Shown: piece after piece, positions 24 through 13,045 of the stretch
How the letters are laid out: the number at the start of each line of letters is the position of its first letter
Numbering within the stretch: the first letter of the stretch is position 1
Assembly (NCBI GenBank): GCA_039819115.1
Contig: JBCBST010000088.1
Span: forward strand, 1-13,965
Reading direction: 5' to 3'
Source: Bacteroidota bacterium
GTDB taxonomy: Bacteria; Bacteroidota; Rhodothermia; Balneolales; Balneolaceae
DNA length: 13,965 nt
Translations under genes and position numbers: made by a program
Notes under the pieces: model-generated
Told to the model about the DNA's origin: nothing
The model's input: the letters and a program-made list of their open reading frames with translations, nothing else
Database searches by the model: none

Positions 24-1169
24 TTGAGTATAGGTATCAATATTCGGTTATCGATCTCTTTTATTACGGCATTATTGGTATTCCAGGTAGCTAAACCGCA
101 GTCTCGTGGCGATTCCCTTGCTTATGGATACTTACCTATTCTATCGTTTAACACCGATAGCAGGGCTGTATTTGGTGGTGAAGTACAGCGATACAATTAC
201 GCGGGGCGAAAACCATTTAAGGATTATACCCGCGGGTTTTTGATGTATTCCACAGCCGGAGCCTTTAGTACATTTCTATCCAGAGATCAGATTTTTGAAG
301 AGGCTAATAACTTCAGGTTACATACCGAGATTTACGCTATACAGAATTTTGACAATTATTATCTGGGCGACACGGAGTTGGTATCTTTTAATGAGGCGCT
401 GTTCGACACGTCCGACTTCTACAATTTTAACTCCTTTTCAACTCAGATTGGGATTAATGCTCGTTTCCTACTGAAAAAAGGGGAAGGTATACATCGAACG
501 GACATCGAAGCAGGACTAAGGTTATACTATGAGTCACCATGGGGGAACAGAGAAGATCAGTTTATTAGCGGAAATCAAATAGAAGGGGCTACAGGCTCTT
601 TTTTATCCTTTATTCAAACCGGGTTTATTCTGGAACGAAGAAATTCCGAATTCAGACCCACGAAAGGGTTTCTGGTGGACGTGGGCAGCAGGTATGCACC
701 CCCGGTCTTAAGTACTCATCATGTGATTGCGAATAACGTCCGTCTAAATGGACATATACCTATTCCATTTCCACTTATTGATGTTTCCATGGCCGGTACT
801 ATACAGTTACAACATACCTATGGGCAAACGCCCTATTGGTTAGCTTCCGGGTTAGGCGGTGGTGCATTTTTAAGAGGGTATCGGTTTCGCCGCTTTACCA
901 GCGATAACGCCCTTTCATATAGCATTGAATCACGCTCATGGTTTTTTAAACTACCTTTTCAGAATATAGAGATCGGTGGAAACCTGTTCATGGATGGGGG
1001 GCGTGTTTTTACGAATTCGAATTGGGATTCTATTCTCAGAAAGCATAACCATACCTTTGGTTTAGGTGGAGTGATGGCTATCTTTACTCCTGATTTTATT
1101 CTGAAGTTCGATCTTGGTTTTTCAGAGGAAGGAACGGGGTTGTACCTGGGAACGGGATATGCTTTTTAA
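24..1169 (+). CDS. Omp85/BamA-family (bacterial surface antigen D15) outer-membrane beta-barrel; no POTRA region visible
   Basis: Hydrophobic N-terminus (SISFITALLVFQVA) resembling a signal peptide. Motifs LGGGAFLRGYRFRRF and GGNLFMDGGRVF are typical of the surface-antigen barrel family. The C-terminus GTGYAF ends in Phe, a beta-signal. The start is TTG, and the reading frame stays open to the left window edge, so the 5' end is uncertain. Confidence 0.7.
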   Translation: MSIGINIRLSISFITALLVFQVAKPQSRGDSLAYGYLPILSFNTDSRAVFGGEVQRYNYAGRKPFKDYTRGFLMYSTAGAFSTFLSRDQIFEEANNFRLHTEIYAIQNFDNYYLGDTELVSFNEALFDTSDFYNFNSFSTQIGINARFLLKKGEGIHRTDIEAGLRLYYESPWGNREDQFISGNQIEGATGSFLSFIQTGFILERRNSEFRPTKGFLVDVGSRYAPPVLSTHHVIANNVRLNGHIPIPFPLIDVSMAGTIQLQHTYGQTPYWLASGLGGGAFLRGYRFRRFTSDNALSYSIESRSWFFKLPFQNIEIGGNLFMDGGRVFTNSNWDSILRKHNHTFGLGGVMAIFTPDFILKFDLGFSEEGTGLYLGTGYAF

Positions 1170-1177
1170 AAAGACTA

Positions 1178-2677
1178 GTGGAGAAGACGCAGTTTATGGC
1201 GCTTGAGATTATCTCTGTTTTGGCAGTAGCAATTTATATGGTGGGTGCACTGCTTATAACGATATACACACTTGGGGAATTTCATCTCCTGTATATACTA
1301 TTCAAACGGAAAGGTGACCCGAAATTCGAACCGGAGACACAGGTTTGGGATTGGGATACACTCCCAAAAGTTACCGTTCAGCTGCCCATGTATAATGAGC
1401 AATATGTTGCCAAAGATGTAATCAGTGCCTGTGCTCAATTAGATTATCCCAAAGATAAGCTCGAGATTCAGGTGGTCGATGATTCTAATGACGAAACAAA
1501 AGCAATTGTTGACGAACAAGTAGCTTTTTGGAGTTCTAAAGGAATAAATATCAAAGTGTTTAGGAGAGACCACAGGGCCGGGTATAAAGCAGGTGCTCTG
1601 AGGGATGCCACACCCTATGCAGAGGGAGATTTTATTGCAATTTTCGATGCTGATTTTAAGCCGGAGCCTGATTTTTTACAAAAAAGCATACCCTATTTTA
1701 AACACGAAAATGTCGGGGTAGTGCAAGGTAAATGGGGACACATCAACCGGGATTACTCGGTGCTGACCAAAGCACAGTCTGCCTTCCTTGATATGTTTTT
1801 TTTGATCGAGCAAAAAGCAAGATCTCTGGGAGGTTACTTTCTTCGGTTTAACGGCTCTGCCGGAGTTTGGAGAAAGGTATGTATTGAGGATGCAGGAGGC
1901 TGGTCAGCAGATACGCTTTCTGAAGATTTGGATTTATGTTTTAGGGCACAATTAAAGGGTTGGAAAGTTCTGTATGATGAGAAGATTGTGGCACCTGCTG
2001 AAGTTCCTGTTACCATTCTGGATTTCAAGACCCAACAATATCGATGGACTAAAGGAAAGGCGCAGGTTATCCGTAAGCTTGGACCAAAACTGTGGAAAGC
2101 AAACATACCTCTTCTTTCGAAAGTGCACGCGTTTTTCGACCTCTATAATATTTTTGTACTGCCTGGTTTTTTTAGCCTGGCTATATCCAGTGTATTTATT
2201 TCATACCTGATTACCCAGATTCCCAAATACAATTCTATTCTTGCGTTGTCCACTGTAGGACTCATTAACATTGTTCTGGTGCCTATTTTCCTTTGGATCG
2301 TTATTGGAGACTATAAGAAAGGGATAGTCCCAAAAGCCATAGAATTTGTTAAAACTCTGCCTCCATTTATAGGGACACTACTCGGCATTACATTTTTCCA
2401 GTTACTGTCCTTTCTGGATGGGATACGGGGTGGCGATGCTGTATTTCACCGAACGGCAAAGTACAATATCAGCACTAAGGGAGATTCGTGGCATAATAAA
2501 CTGTATTCTCCGCGAGAGATACCCATTGTTACCTATGCCGAAGGTAGTTTGGTCGTGCTTTTTTTATTTGCGCTCTGGGTAGATTTCTCTTTTAAAAGCT
2601 ATGGCTTTGTACCTTCTCATATCGTTTTTACGGCGGGATTTGGCTTCGTTTTTCTAAACTCCATCGTACGATCATAA
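1178..2677 (+). CDS. Processive family-2 glycosyltransferase (CslA/BcsA/NodC-like membrane-embedded synthase)
   Basis: N-terminal TM segment, then the GT2 motifs DDSND, FDADF (DxD), SEDLD (TED-like) and QQYRWTKG (QxxRW), followed by several C-terminal TM segments. GTG start at 1178, with an alternative ATG at 1196. The gene begins 8 nt after the upstream barrel gene. Confidence 0.9.
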   Translation: MEKTQFMALEIISVLAVAIYMVGALLITIYTLGEFHLLYILFKRKGDPKFEPETQVWDWDTLPKVTVQLPMYNEQYVAKDVISACAQLDYPKDKLEIQVVDDSNDETKAIVDEQVAFWSSKGINIKVFRRDHRAGYKAGALRDATPYAEGDFIAIFDADFKPEPDFLQKSIPYFKHENVGVVQGKWGHINRDYSVLTKAQSAFLDMFFLIEQKARSLGGYFLRFNGSAGVWRKVCIEDAGGWSADTLSEDLDLCFRAQLKGWKVLYDEKIVAPAEVPVTILDFKTQQYRWTKGKAQVIRKLGPKLWKANIPLLSKVHAFFDLYNIFVLPGFFSLAISSVFISYLITQIPKYNSILALSTVGLINIVLVPIFLWIVIGDYKKGIVPKAIEFVKTLPPFIGTLLGITFFQLLSFLDGIRGGDAVFHRTAKYNISTKGDSWHNKLYSPREIPIVTYAEGSLVVLFLFALWVDFSFKSYGFVPSHIVFTAGFGFVFLNSIVRS

Positions 2678-2711: not shown

Positions 2712-2786
2712 GTACCGCGTACGGGATTCGAACCCGTGCTACCGCCGTGAAAGGGCGGCGTCCTAGGCCTCTAGACGAACGCGGCA
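2712..2786. repeat. Direct repeat copy A (75 nt, contains tRNA-Glu)
   Basis: Identical base for base to 3039-3113 by direct comparison. Confidence 0.95.
2713..2785 (-). tRNA. tRNA-Glu (anticodon UUC), copy 1
   Basis: The reverse complement folds by hand as a cloverleaf: acceptor GCCGCGT/ACGCGGT, anticodon stem CCGCC/GGCGG, loop CTTTCAC, T-arm ACGGG-TTCGAAT-CCCGT, discriminator A. It is very close to the canonical bacterial tRNA-Glu sequence. CCA is not encoded. Confidence 0.93.
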
Positions 2787-2804
2787 TAGGGGAACAAGAT
2801 TTTG

Positions 2805-2879
2805 GGAGCCTGATGGGAATTGAACCCACGGCCTCTGGTGCCACAAACCAGCGCTCTAACCAACTGAGCTACAGGCTCC
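2805..2879 (-). tRNA. tRNA-His (anticodon GUG) with encoded G-1
   Basis: Reverse complement is GGAGCCTGTAGCTCAGTTGGTTAGAGCGCTGGTTTGTGGCACCAGAGGCCGTGGGTTCAATTCCCATCAGGCTCC. Anticodon loop TTGTGGC. The 7-bp acceptor stem is fully paired, with an extra 5' G opposite C73, which is the His identity feature. Confidence 0.93.
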
Positions 2880-2889
2880 ATCAAGTCAA

Positions 2890-2933
2890 TCAATAAACAA
2901 AACATTCCAACTAATGATCATCATAGTTGGAAT
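2890..2933 (-). terminator. Terminator-like hairpin inside the tRNA array
   Basis: A perfect 10-bp stem, ATTCCAACTA (2904-2913) with TAGTTGGAAT (2924-2933), and a 10-nt loop. On the minus strand it is followed by GTTTTGTTTATTG. The stem is AT-rich, so its strength is uncertain. Confidence 0.35.
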
Positions 2934-3015
2934 TGGTTAGAGTAGTAAATACTCCAATAGCAATTGCACTCACAATGATAAAGAACATGACAAGGTAAAT
3001 AATATGCGATGGCAT
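2911..3015 (-). CDS. Candidate 34-aa hydrophobic micro-protein (MPSHIIYLVMFFIIVSAIAIGVFTTLTNSNYDDH)
   Basis: Hand translation of the minus strand gives ATG at 3015-3013 and TAG at 2913-2911. It contains one predicted TM helix. It is below the ORF-track length cutoff. There is no clear RBS and no homology evidence. Confidence 0.2.
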   Translation of the reverse strand: MPSHIIYLVMFFIIVSAIAIGVFTTLTNSNYDDH

Positions 3016-3038
3016 CTCTTTGTTTGCTCGTTACAATA

Positions 3039-3113
3039 GTACCGCGTACGGGATTCGAACCCGTGCTACCGCCGTGAAAGGGCGGCGTCCTAGGCCTCTA
3101 GACGAACGCGGCA
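3039..3113. repeat. Direct repeat copy B (75 nt, contains tRNA-Glu)
   Basis: Identical base for base to 2712-2786. The copies are spaced 327 nt apart. Confidence 0.95.
3040..3112 (-). tRNA. tRNA-Glu (anticodon UUC), copy 2
   Basis: Sequence is identical to the copy at 2713-2785. Confidence 0.93.
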
Positions 3114-3128
3114 AAAAATAAAACCGTG

Positions 3129-3199
3129 AGGCGACAGGCGGATTCGAACCGCCGTACGAGGTTTTGCAGACCTCTGCCTAGCCACTCGGCCATGTCGCC
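3129..3199 (-). tRNA. tRNA-Cys (anticodon GCA)
   Basis: Reverse complement is GGCGACATGGCCGAGTGGCTAGGCAGAGGTCTGCAAAACCTCGTACGGCGGTTCGAATCCGCCTGTCGCCT. Anticodon stem GAGGT/ACCTC with loop CTGCAAA, T-arm GGCGG-TTCGAAT-CCGCC, and a U73 discriminator as expected for Cys. Confidence 0.92.
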
Positions 3200-3220
3200 T
3201 TTTAAAACAAGGTTTGTTTG

Positions 3221-3294
3221 TACGCCCATCAGGACTCGAACCTGAAACCTATTGCTTAGAAGGCAATTGCTCTATCCAGTTGAGCTATGGGCGC
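3221..3294 (-). tRNA. tRNA-Arg (anticodon UCU)
   Basis: Reverse complement is GCGCCCATAGCTCAACTGGATAGAGCAATTGCCTTCTAAGCAATAGGTTTCAGGTTCGAGTCCTGATGGGCGTA. Anticodon stem ATTGC/GCAAT with loop CTTCTAA, and T-arm TCAGG-TTCGAGT-CCTGA. Confidence 0.92.
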
Positions 3295-3349
3295 TCAAGT
3301 AATCCAGCTTATTAAGCTGAAGGCGCTCAAATCAATGTATCAATACGTC

Positions 3350-3373
3350 AAAAAAATAAGACCTTACGTCTTA
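3350..3373 (-). terminator. Short terminator-like hairpin downstream of tRNA-Pro
   Basis: On the minus strand, TAAGAC-GTAAG-GTCTTA (6-bp stem, 5-nt loop) is followed immediately by TTTTTTT (complement of the A-run 3350-3356). The stem is short. Confidence 0.4.
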
Positions 3374-3378
3374 CCAAG

Positions 3379-3452
3379 TCGGGGAGACAGGATTTGAACC
3401 TGCGACCCTTCGCTCCCAAAGCGAATGCGCTACCGGGCTGCGCCACTCCCCG
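3379..3452 (-). tRNA. tRNA-Pro (anticodon UGG)
   Basis: Reverse complement is CGGGGAGTGGCGCAGCCCGGTAGCGCATTCGCTTTGGGAGCGAAGGGTCGCAGGTTCAAATCCTGTCTCCCCGA. Anticodon stem TTCGC/GCGAA with loop TTTGGGA, and acceptor CGGGGAG/CTCCCCG. Confidence 0.93.
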
Positions 3453-5960: not shown

Positions 5961-6977
5961 ATGAGACTTTTTCTCCTGTTCTTCCTGTTGCTGACCTCCG
6001 ATGTTTTAGCTCAGATCCGCATCACAGACGTTCCTTCACGTATTGGTTCTATAATGACTAATAACCCGGCCGGGACTGATGTATCGTCTGCGGGGAACAC
6101 CTTTCAAGTTACAACGGACTCTATATTTATTGCTCATGTTACGGGTAATACCCTACAGGCTGTTTCCTATAACGGGATATCAGGAGGTGACGAATCATTG
6201 GCGATTTACGGGTTGTTAGACGGAGGCTTTGTTGTAAGGGAAAATGTTGTGAATTTTTCGATATATGATTCATTTGGCGCGCTTATAACCAGTATTTCGA
6301 ATAGCAGTAATAGTGAGGAAGGCGAGTCTATCTCGGAGCTTGCTATGGATCCCAACGGAAAGACGATTGTTTTCTACACGGCAACGATTATTCAAAGCGG
6401 GAAAAAGGGTTCGGTGGCACGTGTTGTGCAGGGTAACAAAGCGGTTGGGTTTTATTATGATGATGCCCGGGAAATATCAACAGTAGAAGTTTCACAGAAC
6501 GGAGAACTGATTGGGATCATAAACCATCGTGATGGTGAAGACTACCAGGTTCAGATTTTTGACCGTTTTGGTAATGAGATCTCTACTATATCTTTTGATC
6601 GTGAAATAAAAGGGGTGACTTTTTCTGATAATGGATTGAATGCAACGGTATTTTCCAGTGGAAGAGTAGGTGTTTACACGCTTAAAAATGCGAATCGGAT
6701 TGCCAGTACCAGTTTCAGGGGAGGTAATTTAATACGTGCTGCTTTTTTTCCAGAGGAGAATACTATTGTAGGTGTTCTGGGAGATATGAATGAAAACAGG
6801 GTTCAGGATATGAAAATAAGGGCGGTAAACATTAAATCCCGAACCATAAAAGAACAACCGTACCGTGAGGCTCTGATGTATTCTCCGGTAGTGGATATAA
6901 TGCTAGTTCGTGATCGTGCATATTCTTACCGTATAAATGGGTTTAGCCGAGAGTTAAGTATTGATATAACGTTTTAA
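5961..6977 (+). CDS. Secreted repeat protein with PD40/TolB-like beta-propeller repeats
   Basis: Signal peptide MRLFLLFFLLLTSDVLAQ. Recurrent PD40-like strands (LAMDPNGKTIVFY, VEVSQNGELIGII, VTFSDNGLNATVF). Internal repeat FSIYDSFGALITSIS / VQIFDRFGNEISTISF. The C-terminus ends in Phe. Confidence 0.6.
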   Translation: MRLFLLFFLLLTSDVLAQIRITDVPSRIGSIMTNNPAGTDVSSAGNTFQVTTDSIFIAHVTGNTLQAVSYNGISGGDESLAIYGLLDGGFVVRENVVNFSIYDSFGALITSISNSSNSEEGESISELAMDPNGKTIVFYTATIIQSGKKGSVARVVQGNKAVGFYYDDAREISTVEVSQNGELIGIINHRDGEDYQVQIFDRFGNEISTISFDREIKGVTFSDNGLNATVFSSGRVGVYTLKNANRIASTSFRGGNLIRAAFFPEENTIVGVLGDMNENRVQDMKIRAVNIKSRTIKEQPYREALMYSPVVDIMLVRDRAYSYRINGFSRELSIDITF

Positions 6978-7124: not shown

Positions 7125-8930
7125 ATGAAATTAATAACTTCGGGAATCATTATACTGATTTGCTTTTGTAGTGGAATACTCGTTGCTCAGATACCGGATC
7201 GCGAGCGTACTGCATTAGACGAACAGGTAGAGGAAGCAAAGTACGAACGTTATTATGAAATTCTGCTAGACAACTCCTTATCTGAATATTATAAGGAGGG
7301 CACATTTATTGTTGATGTCAAAGCCACGGTATCCAGGGTATTGGTTCCCAAAGGTTACGAGTTAGTAGAACCCGAAGCACGCCCGGGATTGGAAAGTCTT
7401 CCGGGATTACCGGTTATTCCACCAAGCCTTCGGTCCGGAAATCGTGAACAGGACAGCCTTCGGATTTCAGGCTTTGATTCCGGGCTGAGACTGGATCGTA
7501 TTGTGGTTAAAATTCTGGTAGATACATCGTATAGCACGGAGGACATGGACTTTGTAGAGGAGGCTGTTACCATGCTAGCCAATGTGGATCCGTTCAGAGG
7601 AGATGATGTTTCCATTGAGAAAAAAATATTTCCGAGAAATGAACGTGGCATCATAAAAGATGCTGCCACCCCTCAGCCAGAACAAAAGGTTGAACGCCTG
7701 GTAACTGAAGAACCTGTACAACCTCCATCCACTCCGGAAGGATTGGACTGGAACGACCCAAAGGTATTGTGGTATGTAATTGGAGCGCTGGGCGCACTGT
7801 TGTTTGGTCTGTTATTATTTCTGGCGTTACGAAGGCCGGAAAGCGGGCGACAGGTTTCGGAACTGGAGGCTGCACATAATCTGGAGCGACTGGTACAGTC
7901 CAAATCGGAACAGCTAAAAACAGATGTTGAAATACAAGACCTTAGTTCAGATCGACTGATCAAGTATGAAGAGGATAAAACATACACCACGAATACAACG
8001 ATAAGCAATCCAAAGTTAGTAGCCGATCTGGTTTCGCAATGGATTGCAACCGAAGAAGAAGAGGGTATGGTAAAGGGAGTAAGGGCGATATTCAGCACCG
8101 ATCCATTGCTGTTAGACATTCTTAAACCTCATCTGAGCGATACGAACTATGAGACGCTTCGATTTGGTATATCAAATATTGAAAGCATTCCAGCGAACGA
8201 CCGCGCCGAAGAAGCCAACAGGTTCAGAAGGGCCATTCAACAAACAAAAGCAGTGAATGGAGAAGATGATAATTCCGCGAATCTGTTCGATTTTGTACAA
8301 CAGTTATCCGACCAACAACTCCTTCATCTCATTAAAGGCGAGTCTGATGAGATGACAGCGATTATGCTTGCACAGGTAGCTGGCGAACGGGCAGGATACG
8401 TACTTCAAAAAATGGATGAAGATCGTAAGCTTTCCATTCTGCTTAAGATGGGAAAAATATCGAACATCCCGGTTTCAATTTATAAACGTGTAGCCTCTCA
8501 TTTTTCCAGTAAGGCACTATCGGTATCTGATATGAAGTATGTCGCTGCCGATGGTGTGGAGTCCATTCTGGCGACGATAGATTCCTTACCTATTTCCGAA
8601 CAAGACGAGTTTGTACAGTCCATTGCCAAGAAAGACTTAAACCTCGCTAAAAAGATCCGGAAATACTTTATTGCCTTTGACGATATCCCTTCAGTCGATC
8701 CCAATATTCTTCAACGGGCATTGGAAAGCAAAAACTCGGAAGAAATGGTGCTAGCGCTAACAGGTGCTGGTGAGCAGGTAAAAAGAGCCATGCTCGATGT
8801 ACGTCCGAACAGAGAACAACAACTGATTTTAGCCGAATTGGCCGAAAACCGGGAGGTAAATACGTATTCCATTGAGACCATTCGAAAGGACATTCTAATG
8901 GAAATACGAAAGCAGCTTAAGAGAGGATAG
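7125..8930 (+). CDS. FliF(C-terminal portion)-FliG fusion-like membrane protein (rotor-like protein)
   Basis: ATG at 7125 gives the signal/TM sequence MKLITSGIIILICFCSGILVAQ; the track ORF begins at TTG 7077. The periplasmic part ends with LDRIVVKILVD...EEAVTMLANVDPFRGDDVSIEKKIFP, which resembles the end of the FliF periplasmic domain (...RLSVAVVVN...REAMGF..RGD.v.V....F). A single TM segment follows (VLWYVIGALGALLFGLLLFLAL). NPKLVADLVSQWIATEEEE resembles the FliF C-terminal FliG-binding helix. After that come FliG N-, M- and C-like regions (FDFVQQL..., IRKYFIAFDDI..., LALTGAGEQVKRAML...). Confidence 0.75.
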   Translation: MKLITSGIIILICFCSGILVAQIPDRERTALDEQVEEAKYERYYEILLDNSLSEYYKEGTFIVDVKATVSRVLVPKGYELVEPEARPGLESLPGLPVIPPSLRSGNREQDSLRISGFDSGLRLDRIVVKILVDTSYSTEDMDFVEEAVTMLANVDPFRGDDVSIEKKIFPRNERGIIKDAATPQPEQKVERLVTEEPVQPPSTPEGLDWNDPKVLWYVIGALGALLFGLLLFLALRRPESGRQVSELEAAHNLERLVQSKSEQLKTDVEIQDLSSDRLIKYEEDKTYTTNTTISNPKLVADLVSQWIATEEEEGMVKGVRAIFSTDPLLLDILKPHLSDTNYETLRFGISNIESIPANDRAEEANRFRRAIQQTKAVNGEDDNSANLFDFVQQLSDQQLLHLIKGESDEMTAIMLAQVAGERAGYVLQKMDEDRKLSILLKMGKISNIPVSIYKRVASHFSSKALSVSDMKYVAADGVESILATIDSLPISEQDEFVQSIAKKDLNLAKKIRKYFIAFDDIPSVDPNILQRALESKNSEEMVLALTGAGEQVKRAMLDVRPNREQQLILAELAENREVNTYSIETIRKDILMEIRKQLKRG

Positions 8931-10031
8931 GTGATGCAAGCACGCAGTATAGCCGGGTTACTCTTAATGGTGATTATAGCCTCGACAGAGGTAGTTGCAC
9001 AGGAAAAAAAAGATGCTAACACCTATCTGTTACATAAGATTACCCCACAGATTGAGGCGGCACTGGGAGAGATACCGATTGGTATTCGACGGGTGTCGGT
9101 GTACCGCTTAAATTACGACCCGCAGTTTTTTACCCCGGAGGATGCCAATTACATCAGAGCAGAAGTTGAGGCTACGATCCAGAGAGGGAGTGCGATTCGG
9201 ATTCTTACTCCGCCGGAGTTGGAGCCGAATGATGAGCTTAAGATTTTTGGAAACGATAGTACTCTTCAGGTTTCAAACCTGGAAGGAAGATCCTTTGCTG
9301 ATAACTCGCAGATTCTTTTACAGGAAGTGGTTGAGCGATATGACATTCAGGGTTTGGTCGAGCTTACGATCCAGAAAAAATATTTTGAAGGGATTGTGCT
9401 AACTATGCGAATGATAAATCCTAACAACCAGGAATTAATCTTTGCCAGAAGCTTTGTTTCCAATCCTATCCGATTTACTGAGAAAAAGGACAGCAGTATT
9501 CATCACTTTGTGGCTAGTTTTGGTCTTGGAAACTGGAATGGAGAATCCTTTTTGGAAATACAGGATTCAGGCATGGGGCCCGATACGGTTTCTGTGAACA
9601 ATGATGACACCATCCTCGACTTAAATTTTAGTCTTTCCTACCGCCAGAGTATTTCGGATGATAATAGCAGCTACCTGGGGGCTTTGATCGGATTCCATAA
9701 CCTCAGGAGCAGAAACATTGATGCTTTTGATGTGAATTTCTTCGAGCTTGGACTGACCTGGGATCAGGCCATATCCAAACGTATAGCTCACATTAATGAG
9801 TATCGGGTAAAGCTGCTGGCTAAAGGCAGTGTATTGTTTCCTTTAGGTGATCGTTCGGGGGAGCTGATTATGATAAGTCCCGGGTTACAGCTTAACCTTA
9901 CTCGGAATTTAAGTTTGAATCTCTACACGCAATCTATTCTTTCGGGAGAACGCATTCGGGAAGACGATTCTTTTCAAGTTATTACTTTCAATCGATTTGG
10001 CTATGGCTTACAAGGAATGGTACGTTTTTAG
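8931..10031 (+). CDS. Outer-membrane protein: periplasmic alpha/beta domain plus C-terminal beta-barrel; function unknown
   Basis: GTG at 8931 directly abuts the upstream TAG, and ATG at 8934 is the alternative start. GAGAGGA lies just upstream. Signal peptide ...LLMVIIASTEVVAQ. The C-terminal third shows amphipathic beta-strand alternation and ends GYGLQGMVRF, with the terminal Phe of a beta-signal. Confidence 0.65.
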   Translation: MMQARSIAGLLLMVIIASTEVVAQEKKDANTYLLHKITPQIEAALGEIPIGIRRVSVYRLNYDPQFFTPEDANYIRAEVEATIQRGSAIRILTPPELEPNDELKIFGNDSTLQVSNLEGRSFADNSQILLQEVVERYDIQGLVELTIQKKYFEGIVLTMRMINPNNQELIFARSFVSNPIRFTEKKDSSIHHFVASFGLGNWNGESFLEIQDSGMGPDTVSVNNDDTILDLNFSLSYRQSISDDNSSYLGALIGFHNLRSRNIDAFDVNFFELGLTWDQAISKRIAHINEYRVKLLAKGSVLFPLGDRSGELIMISPGLQLNLTRNLSLNLYTQSILSGERIREDDSFQVITFNRFGYGLQGMVRF

Positions 10032-10617
10032 ATTGTCTTTTTTGGGAATATTGCTCATTTCCATATTGTCCTGTTCCGGACAAAAGGAGCTACTGGATAA
10101 GCTAACCGAACTGGAGTCAGACACTACAGGTGCTGTTGACAAACCGGGTGTTACCGATCCGGCGCCCAGATCTGATGAAGAACGTATTGAGGTTACTTAT
10201 GGGAATAAGAGTACCGGGCTAACCATGAAGCTGAACCCGGATAAAGATCGCTTTTTTATGGAGCTGAGAGGGGTGCGAGCCGAACAAACGGATACGGTTA
10301 TTGTAGCGGACAGTACGTTAATGCGTCAACGCAATGAGGATATGCAGCGTATGCTCGCATCATTTAGGGAAGCTCAGGATTTGTTATATCTGAATGAACT
10401 GGATCAGGCGGTAGCTAAAATCAATGAGGTATTGGATATCCAGGAAACAGCCGATGCCTACGCCCTCAAAGGCACGATCTATTTTTTGAAGGGTAATCGC
10501 ACCGCAGCACGGGCAAATTGGAACCGGGCAGTTCAGATCAACCCGAATTTGCCGATACCCAGCATTGAAGGGTTAGATGCAATCATACAAGAGCTTTTGG
10601 AGGAAAATCAACAATGA
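9997..10617 (+). CDS. TPR-containing lipoprotein
   Basis: Lipobox ILS-C (LLISILSCSGQ). The C-terminal TPR-like segment is AYALKGTIYFLKGNRTAARANWNRAVQINPNLP. The ATG at 9997 overlaps the upstream gene by 35 nt. A TTG at 10033, immediately after the upstream stop, is an alternative start. Confidence 0.7.
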   Translation: MAMAYKEWYVFRLSFLGILLISILSCSGQKELLDKLTELESDTTGAVDKPGVTDPAPRSDEERIEVTYGNKSTGLTMKLNPDKDRFFMELRGVRAEQTDTVIVADSTLMRQRNEDMQRMLASFREAQDLLYLNELDQAVAKINEVLDIQETADAYALKGTIYFLKGNRTAARANWNRAVQINPNLPIPSIEGLDAIIQELLEENQQ

Positions 10618-11456
10618 GAATTTCGGTAGCTAACATTCTTGGAGTTTTAATAAGCCTTGGTCTCATTGTATTTGGCGTTATGGAGGTTACGGGTTCCTCC
10701 GATTTAATAAATCGGTGGCTGGGTTCTTCAGGGTCCCGCTTCTTAAATATTCCCAGCTTAGCCATTGTTTTGGGTGGAGTTATGAACGCCGTGTTTATCA
10801 CGTATCAACCCAAATATATTGGAAAGGCATTTCTTAGTGTGTTCCTCATTTTCAATCATTCCAAAACCAATAACAAGCGCCTGAAACAAGATTTGGTTAA
10901 GATCCTGGAATGGAATGAACTCATTAAATCAAACCGGGTGAAATCCTTAAACAGCCTGGCCGAAGAGCATGCCAAGGAAGTTTCGGGGTTCCTGTTCTCT
11001 TTATTGAGCACCAACTACACCCAGGAAGAAATCGAATCGTTTGGTACGGTTAATGTTGAAGAACACTTTTACCGGAAAATGGTCATCGTAGATGTTTTAA
11101 AAGCGATGGGTGCCTCAGCACCAGCTTTTGGGATGTTTGGTACGTTGTTTGGACTGATTGTAATGTTAGGCAAACTTGAGGATCCTTCGGGTATGGGACC
11201 GGGTTTGGCCGCGGCATTGATAACCACCTTGTATGGAATATCGGTCTCCCGGTTTGTGTTTTATCCTATTGCGCATAAACTCAAGCAAATTGCTGAAATG
11301 GATCGCTTCAGGGAGTACTTTCTCATGGAAGGGATATTGATGATTAATGAGAAAAGATCGGCATTTTACATCCAGGATCGTCTCAACTCTTACCTGCAGC
11401 GTGAGCCAAACGCAGACGAGATCTATCAACCTGCATTAGCAGCTGAAAAAGCGTAA
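10614..11456 (+). CDS. motA: MotA/PomA-type stator channel subunit (MotA_ExbB family, 4 TM)
   Basis: Two N-terminal TM segments, a roughly 90-aa charged cytoplasmic loop, then the signature SAPAFGMFGTLFGLIVMLG...GLAAALITTLYGISVSRFVFYPIAHKL. The start overlaps the upstream stop as ATGA. Confidence 0.85.
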   Translation: MRISVANILGVLISLGLIVFGVMEVTGSSDLINRWLGSSGSRFLNIPSLAIVLGGVMNAVFITYQPKYIGKAFLSVFLIFNHSKTNNKRLKQDLVKILEWNELIKSNRVKSLNSLAEEHAKEVSGFLFSLLSTNYTQEEIESFGTVNVEEHFYRKMVIVDVLKAMGASAPAFGMFGTLFGLIVMLGKLEDPSGMGPGLAAALITTLYGISVSRFVFYPIAHKLKQIAEMDRFREYFLMEGILMINEKRSAFYIQDRLNSYLQREPNADEIYQPALAAEKA

Positions 11457-11458
11457 AA

Positions 11459-12145
11459 ATGGCACTGAACCGAGATAAAGTTGGGTACCGGGGCAGCCGT
11501 ATTCTCGAAGAAGAGATAGAGGAATCGGAATGGCTATTAACCTACAGTGATATCATTACGTTATTACTTGCCTTTTTTGCCGTTCTTATTGCGGTTTCAT
11601 ATGTAGATATCAATCTCTGGGAGCAGTTAAAGCAAGGACTCCGCTCTGAGATAAACAAAGAAGAAAATGTGCGAACACCGTTAGCCGAGGTTAAACGGGA
11701 TCTCGATGAACTGCTTGCGGAAGAAAAAACGAGAGGGTTGGTTGATATCACCCTTGGTAAAGATGGGATAAAGCTTTTCTTTAATAGCAGCAGTTTTTAC
11801 ACCTCAGGCGAAGCGGAGTTACTGCCTACCGGGCAGCAGATTATTGATAAGGTCACCCAGGCTATGAATGCAATCGACTACTACAAATTTAATGTAGATG
11901 TTGAAGGCCATACCGATAACGTTCCGATACAAACTGCGCGGTTTCCCTCCAACTGGGAACTTAGTGTGGCGAGAGCATCCGAAGTGGTTAAGTTTTTTAT
12001 CCAGGAAGGGATTGAGAGTGACCGACTCAAAGCCAGTGGATACGCCGATACCAAACCGGTGGTGCCTCACATAGATGCAAGCGGGAATCAAATTATTGAA
12101 AACCGGGCTTTAAACCGCCGTATCGTGGTCAGAATATACTACTGA
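11459..12145 (+). CDS. motB: MotB-type stator subunit with OmpA-like peptidoglycan-binding domain
   Basis: WLLTYSDIITLLLAFFAVL contains the conserved TM aspartate at codon 31 (nt 11549-11551). The OmpA-like domain reads GHTDNVPIQTARFPSNWELSVARASEVVKFF...NRRIVVRI. The gene starts 2 nt after the motA stop. Confidence 0.87.
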   Translation: MALNRDKVGYRGSRILEEEIEESEWLLTYSDIITLLLAFFAVLIAVSYVDINLWEQLKQGLRSEINKEENVRTPLAEVKRDLDELLAEEKTRGLVDITLGKDGIKLFFNSSSFYTSGEAELLPTGQQIIDKVTQAMNAIDYYKFNVDVEGHTDNVPIQTARFPSNWELSVARASEVVKFFIQEGIESDRLKASGYADTKPVVPHIDASGNQIIENRALNRRIVVRIYY

Positions 12146-13045
12146 TGGATCCTGGTCGGATGTACATTCCAGGATGTATTCATATTCCCGGATGAGTCGT
12201 TCCCGTACCGGAATGGATGCTTCATAAATCCGCTCCTGTTCCTCTTTATAAACTCTTCTGCCTTCCTCTGTCTCGATTGGGATGGGTGCTAATCCAAAGG
12301 CAGAAACATCATATGGGCTGGCCTTCATATCAATACGTCGGGCGTGGGAAGCCAGTTTAAAGGCATCAAAGATCAGGTCAGATGATATCCACGGAAATCC
12401 TTTAAACGCCCATTTATACAAATCCATATTGGTATGAATGCACCCGGCTTGCTCGTTTTCAGTAAAGCGTTCGCGGGTCAGGTCGTATTTATTGAAGGGC
12501 TGAGCTGGTTTCGTAAAAAAGCGGAAAGCATGAAAATGGGTGCACAGTAAAGGGCGCGATTCCACCACTTCCATAATCTCTTTTGACGAAAGACGAAGAG
12601 GTAGTTGCTGGTGACGTACATGCTCCGATCGGTATACCATGGCCCATTCATGCATACCAAAGCATCCAAAAGACGGCTTTCTATCCCGCGAAGCGGTAAG
12701 TAAGGAGTGTATCCATGTAAACGATTGCCGCTTTTTGGAGCTCAACGCATGTACATCAAGGTAGGCTGTGGCATCGGTTGATGTTAATTCCTTTATGGCT
12801 TTCAACTCATCGGTTTGATTTACAGCTAATCCAAACCTGATTCCGGGCGACCATTTTACCAACTGGCTGAATCGAAAGGAATAGTACTCGAACAAAAAAT
12901 CGATTACGGGATTCTTCTTTTGAAAAGATCGCTGCTTCATGTAATCTCCAAGCAGACTCTTCACGCCCTCTTCATGTTGGTGTTGTAGATTCTTCCAATC
13001 TGAACGGGTAAACACAGAATGTATATGCGCAGGATAATGTGCCAT
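12110..13045 (-). CDS. Conserved protein of unknown function; from memory, this family is often labelled '3-methyladenine DNA glycosylase' in automated annotation
   Basis: 311-aa ORF with the N-terminal motif NPVIDFLFEYYSFRFSQLVKWSPG, which I recognise from proteins carrying that label. I cannot verify the function. The 3' end overlaps motB by 36 nt in convergent orientation. Confidence 0.55.
   Translation of the reverse strand: MAHYPAHIHSVFTRSDWKNLQHQHEEGVKSLLGDYMKQRSFQKKNPVIDFLFEYYSFRFSQLVKWSPGIRFGLAVNQTDELKAIKELTSTDATAYLDVHALSSKKRQSFTWIHSLLTASRDRKPSFGCFGMHEWAMVYRSEHVRHQQLPLRLSSKEIMEVVESRPLLCTHFHAFRFFTKPAQPFNKYDLTRERFTENEQAGCIHTNMDLYKWAFKGFPWISSDLIFDAFKLASHARRIDMKASPYDVSAFGLAPIPIETEEGRRVYKEEQERIYEASIPVRERLIREYEYILECTSDQDPSVVYSDHDTAV

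What the first reader, a model, noticed from the sequence alone, without database searches (positions are those of the whole stretch)
7125..12145. Stand-alone rotor-stator operon: FliF-FliG fusion, OM barrel, TPR lipoprotein and MotA/MotB, with no other flagellar gene in view
Seen in sequence: five same-strand genes have junctions of 0 nt (8930/8931), a 35-nt overlap (9997/10031), an ATGA overlap (10614-10617) and a 2-nt gap (11456/11459). This is the packing of a translationally coupled operon. The encoded set covers every envelope layer. It includes a cytoplasmic FliG-like rotor domain tethered through one TM to a periplasmic FliF-like ring-building segment. It also includes a 4-TM MotA and a MotB with the proton-binding Asp and an OmpA-like PG anchor. 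A TPR lipoprotein and a signal-peptide protein ending in an OM beta-barrel signature (…GMVRF) complete the set. The window lacks fliM/fliN, fliE, the rod/hook genes, flhA/flhB/fliPQR, fliI and flagellin. The neighbours are tRNAs and glycan-synthesis genes. Established knowledge: MotA5B2-type stators turn FliG on the FliF ring. The other reuses of 5:2 stators (Tol-Pal, ExbBD-TonB, AglRQS, GldLM, ZorAB) do not retain FliG. Inference: this may be a flagellum-independent rotary or force-transducing envelope machine that keeps the FliG rotor interface and couples it to an outer-membrane component. To my knowledge that would be a previously uncharacterised system.
Basis: partly seen in the sequence, partly recalled or inferred. 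Interest (0 to 1): 0.9.

Follow-up and report, generated by a model that had tools for sequence, protein, structure and literature searches.

The report
Flagellum-free FliF-FliG rotor with MotAB stator
A tightly packed five-gene operon in a Balneolaceae bacterium encodes a natural fusion of the flagellar ring proteins FliF and FliG, a MotA/MotB ion-driven stator, an outer-membrane barrel and a TPR lipoprotein. The same module is conserved in many relatives that have no flagellum, so it looks like an undescribed envelope-spanning motor built from flagellar parts.

Summary
Five same-strand genes (7125-12145) have the stated junctions. Gene 1 is a signal peptide, a periplasmic domain homologous to the FliF RBM3/beta-collar (S-ring) region, one TM helix and a complete FliG (N, M, C). 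FliF RBM1/RBM2 and the FliM-binding EHPQR motif are absent. The residue matching FliG R281 is invariant. Genes 4 and 5 are PomA/MotP-like MotA and a MotB with plug, Asp31 and an OmpA-like domain. Gene 2 is a TolB-N/LpoB-like periplasmic domain fused to a small OM beta-barrel. Gene 3 is a TPR lipoprotein.

All 40 complete Balneolaceae loci keep the five genes in order within unrelated flanks. About 130-150 clusters at 50% identity share the fusion architecture, including lineages that carry type IX secretion genes. No flagellar gene lies within 10 kb in the loci whose flanks were annotated. Gracilimonas tropica carries the module, is non-motile, and is reported to lack flagellar assembly genes.

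The best reading is a flagellum-independent rotor-stator machine that reaches the outer membrane. Rotation, output and physiological role are inferred. I found no published description. Whole-genome absence of flagellar genes was checked only through the literature.

The parts
7125..8930 (+). g1: FliF(RBM3/collar)-TM-FliG fusion protein, 601 aa
   Evidence: ORF. It is 100% identical to NCBI MAG protein P0001, named 'FliG C-terminal domain-containing protein'. The AF2 model has pLDDT 72. Foldseek finds FliG and then FliF S-ring structures.
7125..7190 (+). g1 N-terminal signal peptide (residues 1-22, ends ...VAQ)
   Evidence: Hydrophobic segment 1-26. The family consensus ends in AQ. Cleavage before Gln is inferred from the Bacteroidetes 'Q-rule', which is my own knowledge and was not tested.
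7194..7670 (+). g1 periplasmic FliF-like ring-building domain (residues 24-182): alpha, long beta hairpin, loop, long beta hairpin, alpha, beta
   Evidence: AF2 secondary structure, with pLDDT about 85 outside the loop. Foldseek hits FliF RBM3/beta-collar. The PDB profile search hits only FliF. Pfam YscJ_FliF_C matches 21 of 28 members, and the window's own E-value is 0.022.
7398..7412 (+). Invariant LPGLP motif (residues 92-96) in the disordered loop between the two long hairpins, at the putative tip of the collar
   Evidence: L92, P93, G94 and P96 are invariant in 59 sequences. LPG is nearly invariant in 39 distant members. The loop 82-110 has low pLDDT. A role as a docking site is inference.
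7758..7835 (+). g1 transmembrane helix (residues 212-237)
   Evidence: Hydropathy. AF2 helix 212-235.
7947..8927 (+). g1 cytoplasmic FliG-like region (residues about 275-601), with N, M and C domains
   Evidence: Foldseek aligns full-length FliG (8wiw_3, 310 columns; 3hjl, 319 columns), E 5e-10 to 2e-9. Pfam FliG_M lies at nt 8313-8531 and FliG_C at nt 8619-8924. phmmer hits Aquifex, Thermotoga and Salmonella FliG at E 1e-9 to 3e-11. The R281 equivalent (R563) is invariant. The D289 equivalent (E571) is conserved in Balneolaceae. EHPQ has become ESDE.
8931..10031 (+). g2: signal peptide, TolB-N/LpoB-like periplasmic domain (nt about 9006-9458) and small OM beta-barrel (nt about 9507-10028) ending in RF
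   Evidence: No Pfam or NCBIfam family. The AF2 model has pLDDT 71. Foldseek finds TolB (E 1e-6), the LpoB C-domain (target TM 0.59), and OmpA-TM, OprG, OmpW, NspA and Pla/OmpT barrels. The terminal F is invariant.
9997..10617 (+). g3: TPR lipoprotein (probable start ATG 10003; lipobox Cys at nt 10072-10074; TPR at nt 10450-10548)
   Evidence: Pfam TPR_2, 31.7 bits. A lipobox Cys is visible in the N-termini of nearly all Balneolaceae orthologues printed. The gene is present in 46 of 47 loci.
10614..11456 (+). g4: MotA/PomA-type stator A subunit, 280 aa, 4 TM
   Evidence: Pfam MotA_ExbB, 68 bits. The best NCBIfam matches are MotP (1e-34) and PomA (1e-29), against TolQ at 5e-4. The best PDB match is PomA at 2.5e-23. 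The PomA P151, T158, T185, T186 and P199 equivalents are invariant, and the R88 equivalent is K or R in 43 of 45.
11459..12145 (+). g5: MotB-type stator B subunit, 228 aa, with plug, channel Asp31 (nt 11549-11551) and an OmpA-like peptidoglycan-binding domain
   Evidence: Pfam MotB_plug and OmpA. NCBIfam matches are MotD 2e-47 and MotS 1e-36. PDB matches to MotB/PomB show the aligned Asp. It is the most conserved gene of the five in most loci (62-85% identity across Balneolaceae, about 80% in most).

Best explanation
The five genes encode a self-contained, flagellum-independent envelope machine derived from the flagellar basal body.

The signal peptide of gene 1 is probably removed. The mature protein then has three parts:
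- a periplasmic domain homologous to the ring-forming RBM3/beta-collar part of FliF;
- one membrane helix;
- a complete FliG in the cytoplasm.

Many copies would assemble into a membrane ring. An S-ring-like collar would sit in the periplasm, and a FliG ring with 1:1 stoichiometry would sit on the cytoplasmic face.

MotA/MotB units of the PomAB/MotPS type are anchored to peptidoglycan by MotB's OmpA-like domain. They would dock on the FliG C-domain through the conserved charged interface and use ion flow through the Asp31 channel to push on the ring. The ion may be Na+. The most likely result is rotation of the ring.

There is no export gate, rod, hook, filament or FliM/FliN switch. The output is therefore not a flagellum. 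I propose that force is passed from the periplasmic collar, whose tip carries an invariant LPGLP loop, to the co-encoded TPR lipoprotein. From there it would reach the periplasmic TolB-N-like domain of the co-encoded OM barrel, and so the outer membrane.

Shown here:
- domain identities;
- operon structure;
- conservation of the module;
- conservation of channel and interface residues;
- absence of flagellar genes nearby.

Inferred:
- ring formation;
- rotation;
- ion type;
- the LPGLP/TPR/barrel contacts;
- the physiological role. Candidates are outer-membrane or surface-protein dynamics, surface motility, and envelope maintenance.
For: **Gene 1 domains.**
- FliG_M and FliG_C pass Pfam cut-offs.
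- TIGR00207 fliG matches at 2e-20.
- Foldseek aligns full-length FliG at E 5e-10.
- The FliF RBM3/collar assignment rests on Foldseek, the PDB profile search and Pfam YscJ_FliF_C in 21 of 28 members.

**Stator.**
- The best matches are flagellar Na+-type stators, not Tol, Exb or Zor.
- The channel prolines and threonines are invariant, and MotB Asp31 is present.

**Rotor-stator interface.**
- The FliG R281 equivalent is invariant in 59 close members and in 10 deep lineages.
- An acidic residue sits at the D289 position in Balneolaceae, L048 and L049.
- The MotA R90/PomA R88 equivalent is K or R in 43 of 45.

**Selection and modularity.**
- The five genes are in the same order in 40 of 40 complete Balneolaceae loci, with different flanks.
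- They are retained in deeper lineages: L044, L045, L048, L052, L053 and L054.
- The core FliF-FliG fusion, MotA, MotB and TPR are retained even in rearranged variants L046 and L047.
- 160 clusters at 50% identity score E<1e-30, and nearly all are about 600 aa long.
- 123 of them carry the periplasmic domain.

**Independence from the flagellum.**
- No flagellar Pfam family appears in the gene tables of 11 loci at +-8-10 kb.
- No recurrent neighbour exists beyond the five genes.
- G. tropica is non-motile (PMC4642740).
- Balneola and G. tropica are reported to lack flagellar-assembly genes (PMC9909488).
- The FliM-binding EHPQR motif is lost, and FliF RBM1/2 are absent.

**Outer-membrane partners.** g2 has a TolB-N/LpoB-like domain plus an OM barrel. 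g3 has a lipobox in nearly all printed orthologues.
Against: - No experiment exists.
- The similarity to FliF is weak at the sequence level. The window's own YscJ_FliF_C hit has E 0.022, and the Foldseek E-values are 1e-3 to 1e-2 on an AF2 model.
- Ring formation was not modelled.
- Only part of the canonical charged interface is kept. K264 and R297 are not conserved, D288 is Ser or Ala, and the MotA E98 column is not acidic in the alignment, although EE lies 3-4 residues later.
- Without FliM/FliN it is unknown whether a FliG ring is stable.
- An OM-embedded barrel cannot obviously rotate, so coupling to the OM may be a static tether.
- Absence of flagellar genes in host genomes rests on a KEGG survey in the literature, not on my own scan.
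- The source MAG contig is 14 kb.
- Balneola vulgaris was originally described as flagellated.
Confidence: 0.55

Rival explanations
1. The machine transduces force but does not rotate. It would work like Tol-Pal or ExbBD-TonB. The FliF-FliG oligomer is a static or only transiently moved platform. MotAB pulls on it to drive conformational work on the TolB-N-like OM protein and the TPR lipoprotein, for example for OM tethering, lipoprotein or cargo handling, or constriction.
For: - The g2 periplasmic domain is TolB-N/LpoB-like, and the MotB C-domain is Pal/OmpA-like.
- An OM barrel and an OM lipoprotein are natural end-points of Tol/Ton-type energy transfer.
- The switch proteins and part of the charged ridge are missing.
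Against: - The stator is clearly of the flagellar PomA/MotP type, not TolQ or ExbB (MotP 1e-34 against TolQ 5e-4).
- A ring-building RBM3/collar domain and a full FliG with an invariant torque-helix Arg are kept across about 150 divergent clusters.
- That degree of conservation is hard to explain unless the FliG-MotA torque interface is used.
Confidence: 0.22
2. This is an ordinary but divergent flagellar locus. The fusion would be the organism's FliF and FliG, and the remaining flagellar genes would lie elsewhere in the genome.
For: - Some Balneolaceae (Aliifodinibius/Fodinibius) carry flagellar-assembly genes.
- B. vulgaris was described as flagellated, and G. sediminicola is reported as motile.
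- The source genome is known only as a 14-kb contig.
- JGI annotates relatives as FliG or FliL.
Against: - FliF RBM1/RBM2, which hold the export gate, are absent.
- The FliM-binding EHPQR motif is lost.
- The carrier G. tropica is non-motile and reported to lack flagellar-assembly genes.
- None of 11 annotated loci shows a flagellar gene within +-8-10 kb.
- The constant partners are an OM barrel and a TPR lipoprotein, which are unknown in flagellar operons.
Confidence: 0.06
3. This is a decaying remnant of an ancestral flagellar motor with no present function.
For: - The authors of PMC9909488 suggest that the Balneolaceae ancestor was flagellated and that genes were lost gradually.
- Rotor proteins without filament genes occur in 11% of non-motile species (bioRxiv 10.1101/2024.12.05.626484).
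Against: - Reading frames are intact, the genes are translationally coupled, and order is identical in 40 of 40 loci at only 35-85% identity.
- Many functional residues are invariant.
- New, co-conserved non-flagellar partners are present.
- The family spans about 150 clusters at 50% identity.
- Relics are not maintained in this way.
Confidence: 0.04

Closest known systems
Flagellar basal body core: FliF MS-ring, FliG ring and MotAB/PomAB stator
   Same: - It has a homologous RBM3/beta-collar domain, a full FliG (N, M, C) and a flagellar-type 5:2 stator with plug, channel Asp and PG-binding domain.
- The invariant torque-helix Arg (R281 equivalent) is kept.
- The topology is the same: periplasmic ring, membrane, cytoplasmic FliG.
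- Engineered FliF-FliG fusions are known to form rings and work (PDB 8z4d; PMC10941966, listed).
   Different: - The fusion is natural.
- RBM1 and RBM2 are absent.
- The N-terminal segment is probably a cleaved signal peptide rather than an anchor.
- There is no FliM/FliN and the EHPQR motif is lost.
- There is no type III export apparatus, rod, hook, filament or P/L-ring.
- The module is instead co-encoded with an OM barrel and a TPR lipoprotein.
- It occurs in non-flagellated Balneolaceae and in Bacteroidota that carry type IX secretion genes.
Vibrio-type accessory rings of the Na+ flagellar motor (FlgT H-ring, MotX/MotY T-ring, FlgO/FlgP)
   Same: - The stator is PomAB-like.
- Periplasmic and OM accessory proteins surround a Na+-type motor.
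- From memory, FlgT-N was reported to be TolB-N-like, as the g2 N-domain is. This is a lead, not a test.
   Different: - No sequence match to FlgT, FlgO, FlgP, MotX or MotY models appeared in Pfam or NCBIfam.
- Those proteins decorate a complete flagellum.
Tol-Pal and ExbBD-TonB (5:2 motors that energise the outer membrane)
   Same: - A stator of the MotA/TolQ/ExbB superfamily is combined with an OmpA/Pal-like PG-binding domain, a TolB-N-like periplasmic domain and an OM end-point.
- The system spans the envelope without a filament.
   Different: - The stator is of the flagellar clade (MotP/PomA much stronger than TolQ/ExbB).
- The element acted on is a FliF-FliG ring rather than an elongated TolA or TonB.
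- There is no TolB beta-propeller.
GldLM (Bacteroidota gliding/T9SS motor), AglRQS and ZorAB
   Same: - These are non-flagellar reuses of 5:2 ion-driven motors.
- They occur in the same phyla.
- In one lineage the module lies next to a SprB-repeat protein with a type-B T9SS sorting domain and a PorP/SprF protein.
   Different: - None of these systems uses FliG or an MS-ring-like rotor.
- No GldL, GldM or ZorA match was found. The ZorB hits reflect generic MotB homology.
- ZorA has a long tail that is absent here.

Membership tests
FliG (flagellar rotor protein) | FliG middle and C-terminal armadillo domains | tested here: met
   Pfam FliG_M scores 38.1 bits (cut-off 25) and FliG_C 58.5 bits (cut-off 23.3). 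phmmer hits solved FliGs at E 3e-11 to 4e-7.
FliG (flagellar rotor protein) | FliG N-terminal domain that joins FliG to FliF | tested here: inconclusive
   Foldseek aligns 310-319 columns of full-length FliG, including the N domain. The Pfam FliG_N hit (26.4 bits) falls on the M-domain region. The precomputed Pfam column lists FliG_N for many relatives.
FliG (flagellar rotor protein) | EHPQR motif that binds FliM | tested here: not met
   EHPQ aligns to ESDE, which is invariant as E406 S407 ... E409. R160 aligns to K441.
FliG (flagellar rotor protein) | Charged torque-helix residues facing MotA (K264, R281, D288, D289, R297) | tested here: inconclusive
   R281 aligns to R563, invariant in all lineages. 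D289 aligns to E571, invariant in Balneolaceae and D or E in L048/L049 but not in L044-L047. D288 aligns to Ser or Ala. K264 and R297 are not conserved.
FliG (flagellar rotor protein) | Works with FliM/FliN and the rest of the flagellar regulon | tested here: not met
   No flagellar family appears in the window or within +-8-10 kb of 11 annotated loci. The literature reports no flagellar-assembly genes in G. tropica or Balneola. I did not run a whole-genome scan.
FliF (MS-ring protein) | RBM3/beta-collar (S-ring) region, Pfam YscJ_FliF_C | tested here: met
   Foldseek finds 17 FliF S-ring/RBM3 entries at E 1e-3 to 1.4e-2 with target TM 0.26-0.54. The PDB profile search hits only FliF, at E 0.004 and 0.18. 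PF08345 matches 21 of 28 members (best 6.8e-7, window 0.022, below the curated cut-off).
FliF (MS-ring protein) | RBM1 and RBM2 (Pfam YscJ_FliF), which form the inner ring around the export gate | tested here: not met
   No PF01514 hit in the window protein or in 28 family members. The periplasmic part is only about 190 aa long.
FliF (MS-ring protein) | Two transmembrane helices flanking the periplasmic region | tested here: inconclusive
   There are two hydrophobic segments, at 1-26 and 212-237. The first looks like a cleavable signal peptide ending in AQ. Cleavage was not tested.
MotA/PomA flagellar stator A subunit | Four TM helices, the MotA_ExbB channel domain, conserved channel prolines and a charged cytoplasmic loop | tested here: met
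   Equivalents of P151 and P199 (E. coli P173 and P222) and of T158, T185 and T186 are invariant. The R88/R90 equivalent is K or R in 43 of 45. The E96/E98 column is not acidic, but EE follows 3-4 residues later.
MotB/PomB flagellar stator B subunit | Single TM helix with the channel Asp, a plug helix and a C-terminal OmpA-like PG-binding domain | tested here: met
   MotB_plug scores 46 bits and OmpA 59 bits. Asp31 aligns to the Asp of solved MotBs. NCBIfam MotD 2e-47 and MotS 1e-36, both below the equivalog cut-offs.
Zorya (ZorAB) anti-phage system | ZorA with a long cytoplasmic tail, plus ZorC/D/E partners | tested here: not met
   PADLOC gives no ZorA hit for g4 and no hits for g1-g3. Only generic ZorB/MotB matches appear for g5.
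Tol-Pal / ExbBD-TonB | TolQ/ExbB-type A subunit with TolA or TonB and a TolB beta-propeller | tested here: not met
   TolQ scores 5e-4 and ExbB 0.05, against MotP at 1e-34. No TolA or TonB is present. g2 shares only the TolB N-domain fold.
Outer-membrane beta-barrel protein | Signal peptide, antiparallel beta-barrel and C-terminal aromatic residue | tested here: met
   AF2 gives strands over residues 192-364. Foldseek finds OmpA-TM, OprG, OmpW, NspA and Pla barrels at E 7e-5 to 1e-3. The terminal F is invariant. OM localisation was not tested experimentally.
Bacterial lipoprotein with TPR repeats | Lipobox Cys after a signal peptide, plus TPR motifs | tested here: met
   The window has ...ILSC. 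A lipobox Cys is visible in nearly all Balneolaceae orthologues printed. TPR_2 scores 31.7 bits.

The most novel reading that the evidence does not exclude
This would be a previously unrecognised class of non-flagellar rotary motor, widespread in Balneolales and other Bacteroidota. It would be the first case of the FliG-MotA torque interface used outside a flagellum. A minimal S-ring/FliG rotor, spun by Na+-type stators, would drive an outer-membrane process through a TPR lipoprotein and a TolB-N-like OM barrel. That process might be movement or handling of cell-surface proteins or type IX secretion cargo, or a new form of surface motility. It could be either a stripped-down descendant of the flagellar motor or a living model of a pre-flagellar rotor-stator stage.
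Probability: 0.4. Interest if true: 0.95.

Novelty: new variant of a known kind. Interest (0 to 1): 0.82.

Why it matters
All known non-flagellar uses of MotA/ExbB-type 5:2 motors (Tol, Ton, Agl, GldLM, Zorya) replaced the rotor. FliG and the MS-ring have been regarded as exclusive to flagella.

This module keeps only the ring-forming part of FliF, FliG and the stator, and pairs them with outer-membrane proteins. It is conserved in organisms without flagella. It would show that the torque-generating core can work as a free-standing device.

It would bear on three questions:
- How did the flagellar motor originate, or what is its minimal form?
- How is inner-membrane ion energy delivered to the outer membrane in Bacteroidota?

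The question is directly testable. Gracilimonas tropica DSM 19535 is cultured and carries the operon.

Tried and rejected
- **Upstream ORF 5961-6977 as a sixth component.** It is not homologous to the upstream gene of G. tropica and is absent from all 47 loci. Its weak T9SS type-B/CHU_C matches lie in the middle of the protein. Rejected.
- **Conserved neighbours.** Clustering all ORFs of 47 loci found nothing beyond the five genes in more than 23 loci. Those recurrent neighbours are housekeeping or regulatory genes kept by synteny: SufE, a PAS protein, MeaB, a hybrid kinase, an ECF sigma factor and an acyl-CoA dehydrogenase.
- **Zorya or another defence system.** Rejected.
- **A regulatory RNA in the 147-nt leader.** Rfam finds only the six tRNAs in the window.
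- **Stand-alone FliG relatives.** The 331-aa hits P0226 and P0243 looked like canonical FliGs, but they are fragments at the ends of 1.3-1.4 kb contigs.
- **Taxonomy of the distant members.** Cluster look-ups of neighbouring housekeeping proteins returned no organism names. The profile search returned only unnamed metagenome proteins.
- **Loss of the script machine.** The family-wide residue census of the FliG torque helix was replaced by an 11-sequence alignment. dN/dS was not computed.
- **Sequence search of g2 against the PDB.** It returned only noise.
- **Literature.** Seven searches found no description of this module.

Full report
**Observation.** The window carries five + strand genes between 7125 and 12145.
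- g1 runs 7125-8930 and ends in TAG.
- g2 starts at GTG 8931 (ATG at 8934) and ends at 10031.
- g3 starts at TTG 9997 (ATG at 10003) and ends at 10617.
- g4 starts at 10614 with an ATGA overlap and ends at 11456.
- g5 starts at 11459, two bases later, and ends at 12145.

A convergent gene (12110-13045, minus strand) closes the block. A 147-nt leader precedes g1. The rest of the window encodes an Omp85-family protein, a GT2 synthase, six tRNAs, a GT4 transferase, an epimerase and a UbiA prenyltransferase.

**Gene 1.** Pfam finds FliG_M and FliG_C above their cut-offs, and TIGR00207 fliG matches at 2e-20. I built an AF2 model from 59 homologues (pLDDT 72). It shows:
- an N-terminal hydrophobic helix;
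- a periplasmic alpha / long beta hairpin / disordered loop / long beta hairpin / alpha / beta domain (residues 26-166);
- a TM helix at 212-235;
- an all-helical cytoplasmic region.

Foldseek against the PDB aligns that helical region to full-length FliG over 310-319 columns (E 5e-10). The next hits, ranks 14-31, are almost exclusively FliF MS-ring structures covering RBM3 and the beta-collar. They have E 1e-3 to 1.4e-2 and target TM about 0.5. Unrelated folds (OsmC/Ohr) follow only after them.

Two sequence tests agree with this. A profile of the periplasmic domain from 28 diverse members hits only two PDB sequences, both FliF (E 0.004 and 0.18). The alignment runs through the RGD...FP segment that ends RBM3. 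Pfam YscJ_FliF_C matches 21 of the 28 members (best 6.8e-7), although the window's own score is sub-threshold at E 0.022. No member matches YscJ_FliF (RBM1/2).

The protein is therefore a natural fusion of the S-ring part of FliF to a whole FliG. Its first hydrophobic segment ends in ...AQ, as does that of g2. From my own knowledge of the Bacteroidetes 'Q-rule' for signal peptidase I, I take it to be a cleaved signal peptide.

**Functional residues of the FliG part.**
- Against Salmonella FliG, R281 aligns to R563. This residue is invariant in 59 close relatives and in ten deep lineages.
- D289 aligns to E571. It is invariant in Balneolaceae and acidic in two further lineages, but not in the four most distant ones.
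- D288, K264 and R297 are not kept.
- The FliM-binding EHPQ(R) motif has become an invariant ESDE(K).
- The hinge motif MFxF is kept as (Y/F)FxxF.

The domain keeps the core of the stator-facing surface and has lost the switch-facing one.

**Stator.**
- g4 has four hydrophobic segments. It matches MotP (1e-34) and PomA (1e-29) far better than TolQ (5e-4) or ExbB (0.05). Its best solved relative is Vibrio PomA (2.5e-23).
- In 45 family members the equivalents of PomA P151, T158, T185, T186 and P199 are invariant. R88 (E. coli R90) is Lys or Arg in 43.
- g5 has the plug, Asp31 aligned to the channel Asp of solved MotBs, and an OmpA-like domain.
- g5 is the best conserved of the five genes in most loci, at about 80% identity.
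- The PomA-type threonines, the Na+-stator best hits and the marine or halophilic hosts suggest Na+ coupling. This is inference.
- PADLOC excludes Zorya.

**Outer-membrane partners.**
- g2 has no Pfam or NCBIfam family.
- Its AF2 model (8 sequences, pLDDT 71) has an alpha/beta domain at residues 25-175 and a beta region at 192-364.
- Foldseek matches TolB (through its N-domain, E 1e-6) and the LpoB C-domain (target TM 0.59). It also matches small OM barrels: OmpA-TM, OprG, OmpW, NspA and Pla/OmpT.
- The terminal Phe is invariant.
- g3 has a TPR motif and a lipobox Cys in nearly all the Balneolaceae orthologues printed.

**Conservation and distribution.**
- The window protein is 100% identical to an NCBI MAG protein from a 14,003-bp contig. 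Its relatives at 45-57% identity are named Balneolaceae, Balneola and Gracilimonas.
- A genome scan returned 41 loci, all named Balneolaceae/Balneola/Gracilimonas or a broader or no taxon (Rhodothermia, Bacteroidota, 'bacterium').
- tblastn shows g1-g5 in the same order in every locus that is not cut by a contig end.
- Clustering of all ORFs shows that only these five recur. The other recurrent neighbours are housekeeping genes.
- An exhaustive profile search of 1.84 billion cluster representatives found 160 clusters below 1e-30. Nearly all are about 600 aa and match end to end. 123 carry the periplasmic domain. The short ones that I checked are contig-end fragments.
- Deeper lineages keep all five genes: L044, L045, L048, L052, L053 and L054.
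- Two very distant variants keep the fusion, MotA and MotB, with the TPR and barrel parts rearranged or fused: L046 and L047.
- Genes for type IX secretion sorting domains in several of these loci place them in Bacteroidota.

**Independence from the flagellum.**
- None of the 11 loci with gene and Pfam tables has a flagellar family within 8-10 kb.
- Gracilimonas tropica DSM 19535 carries the module and is non-motile, with only 17 COG-N genes (PMC4642740).
- A KEGG survey of 16 Balneolaceae type strains found flagellar-assembly genes in Aliifodinibius. It contrasts this with Balneola (B. vulgaris DSM 17893), G. tropica and others, where they were not found (PMC9909488).
- Most Gracilimonas species are non-motile.
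- I could not scan whole genomes, and the source MAG is known only from this contig.
- One conflict remains. B. vulgaris was originally described as flagellated.

**Mechanism.** Four features together point to a ring acted on by stator units as in the flagellar motor, without anything to export or spin outside the cell:
- a ring-building domain;
- a 1:1 fused FliG with its torque-helix Arg;
- a flagellar-clade stator with an intact channel;
- a PG anchor.

The loop between the two long hairpins would form the tip of a FliF-like collar. It carries an LPGLP motif that is invariant in 59 sequences and nearly so in distant members. TPR domains bind such peptides. I therefore propose, as inference, the path collar tip to TPR lipoprotein to the TolB-N-like domain of the OM barrel.

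The main rival is a non-rotary, Tol-Pal-like force transducer (0.22). An ordinary flagellar locus (0.06) and a decaying relic (0.04) are disfavoured by the evidence above.

**Comparison with known systems.** The module works like the flagellar rotor-stator core. It fails membership of the flagellum on tested defining features: RBM1/2, EHPQR and FliM/FliN context. It differs from Tol, Ton, Agl, GldLM and Zorya in keeping FliG and an MS-ring-like rotor.

Seven literature searches found no description of it. [quoted passage not shown]

**Verdict.** I rate the finding as a new variant of a known kind, namely a flagellar-type rotor-stator core repurposed as a stand-alone envelope machine. There is a substantial chance (about 0.4) that it is a new class of rotary device. 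Interest is 0.82.

Noticed in passing
L048 15093-19838; L053 15087-21236; L052 13238-14764: In a non-Balneolaceae lineage that carries type IX secretion genes, a DUF5723 protein (508-515 aa) follows the five genes after 8 nt in all three loci. In two of them a SprB-repeat protein with a CHU_C/type-B T9SS sorting domain and a PorP/SprF family protein come next. This may link the module to surface adhesins or T9SS cargo.
   Followed up: partly
L047 10001-12265 (protein P0282, 754 aa): In one very distant variant the FliF-FliG protein continues into a hydrophobic segment with a lipobox-like Cys and a TPR region. Either the TPR lipoprotein gene is fused to gene 1 or it was read through. MotA and MotB follow directly.
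   Followed up: partly
L046 8741-9907: In another distant variant a 388-aa protein upstream of the fusion gene combines a beta-rich region with a C-terminal TPR homologous to g3. A 155-aa ORF replaces g2/g3 between the fusion gene and MotA.
   Followed up: partly
L001 5620-7429 and L054 5012-6885: Two unknown proteins without Pfam families (335/342 aa and 252/266 aa) lie just upstream of the module in both G. tropica and an intermediate lineage (E 3e-45 and 3e-21). They are absent from the window. Large FG-GAP or Por_Secre_tail proteins also flank the module there.
   Followed up: partly
literature (PMC5167729 against PMC9909488): Balneola vulgaris was described as motile with flagella, yet a KEGG survey reports no flagellar-assembly genes in its genome. 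B. vulgaris was not among the 41 genome loci found by the pattern scan, so whether it carries the module is unknown.
   Followed up: no
window 2712-3452 (minus strand): A cluster of six tRNA genes (Glu-TTC, His-GTG, Glu-TTC, Cys-GCA, Arg-TCT, Pro-TGG) includes two tRNA-Glu(TTC) copies.
   Followed up: no
window 5961-6977 (+): A 338-aa secreted-looking protein lies directly upstream of the operon. It has weak, internal matches to the T9SS type-B sorting domain (TIGR04131, E 1e-4; CHU_C, E 0.025). It is not conserved next to the module in any other locus.
   Followed up: yes
window 12110-13045 (minus strand): A convergent 311-aa ORF with no Pfam or NCBIfam match overlaps the 3' end of motB by 36 nt.
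   Followed up: no
window 24-2677 (+): An Omp85-family outer-membrane protein is followed after 8 nt by a membrane GT2 synthase of the cellulose/PNAG-synthase type. This may be a small exopolysaccharide synthesis and export pair.
   Followed up: no
window g4 (10614-11456) and 44 homologues: All members keep Thr at the positions of PomA T158, T185 and T186. Their best matches are Na+-type stators (MotP, PomA, MotS), which hints that the motor runs on sodium.
   Followed up: partly
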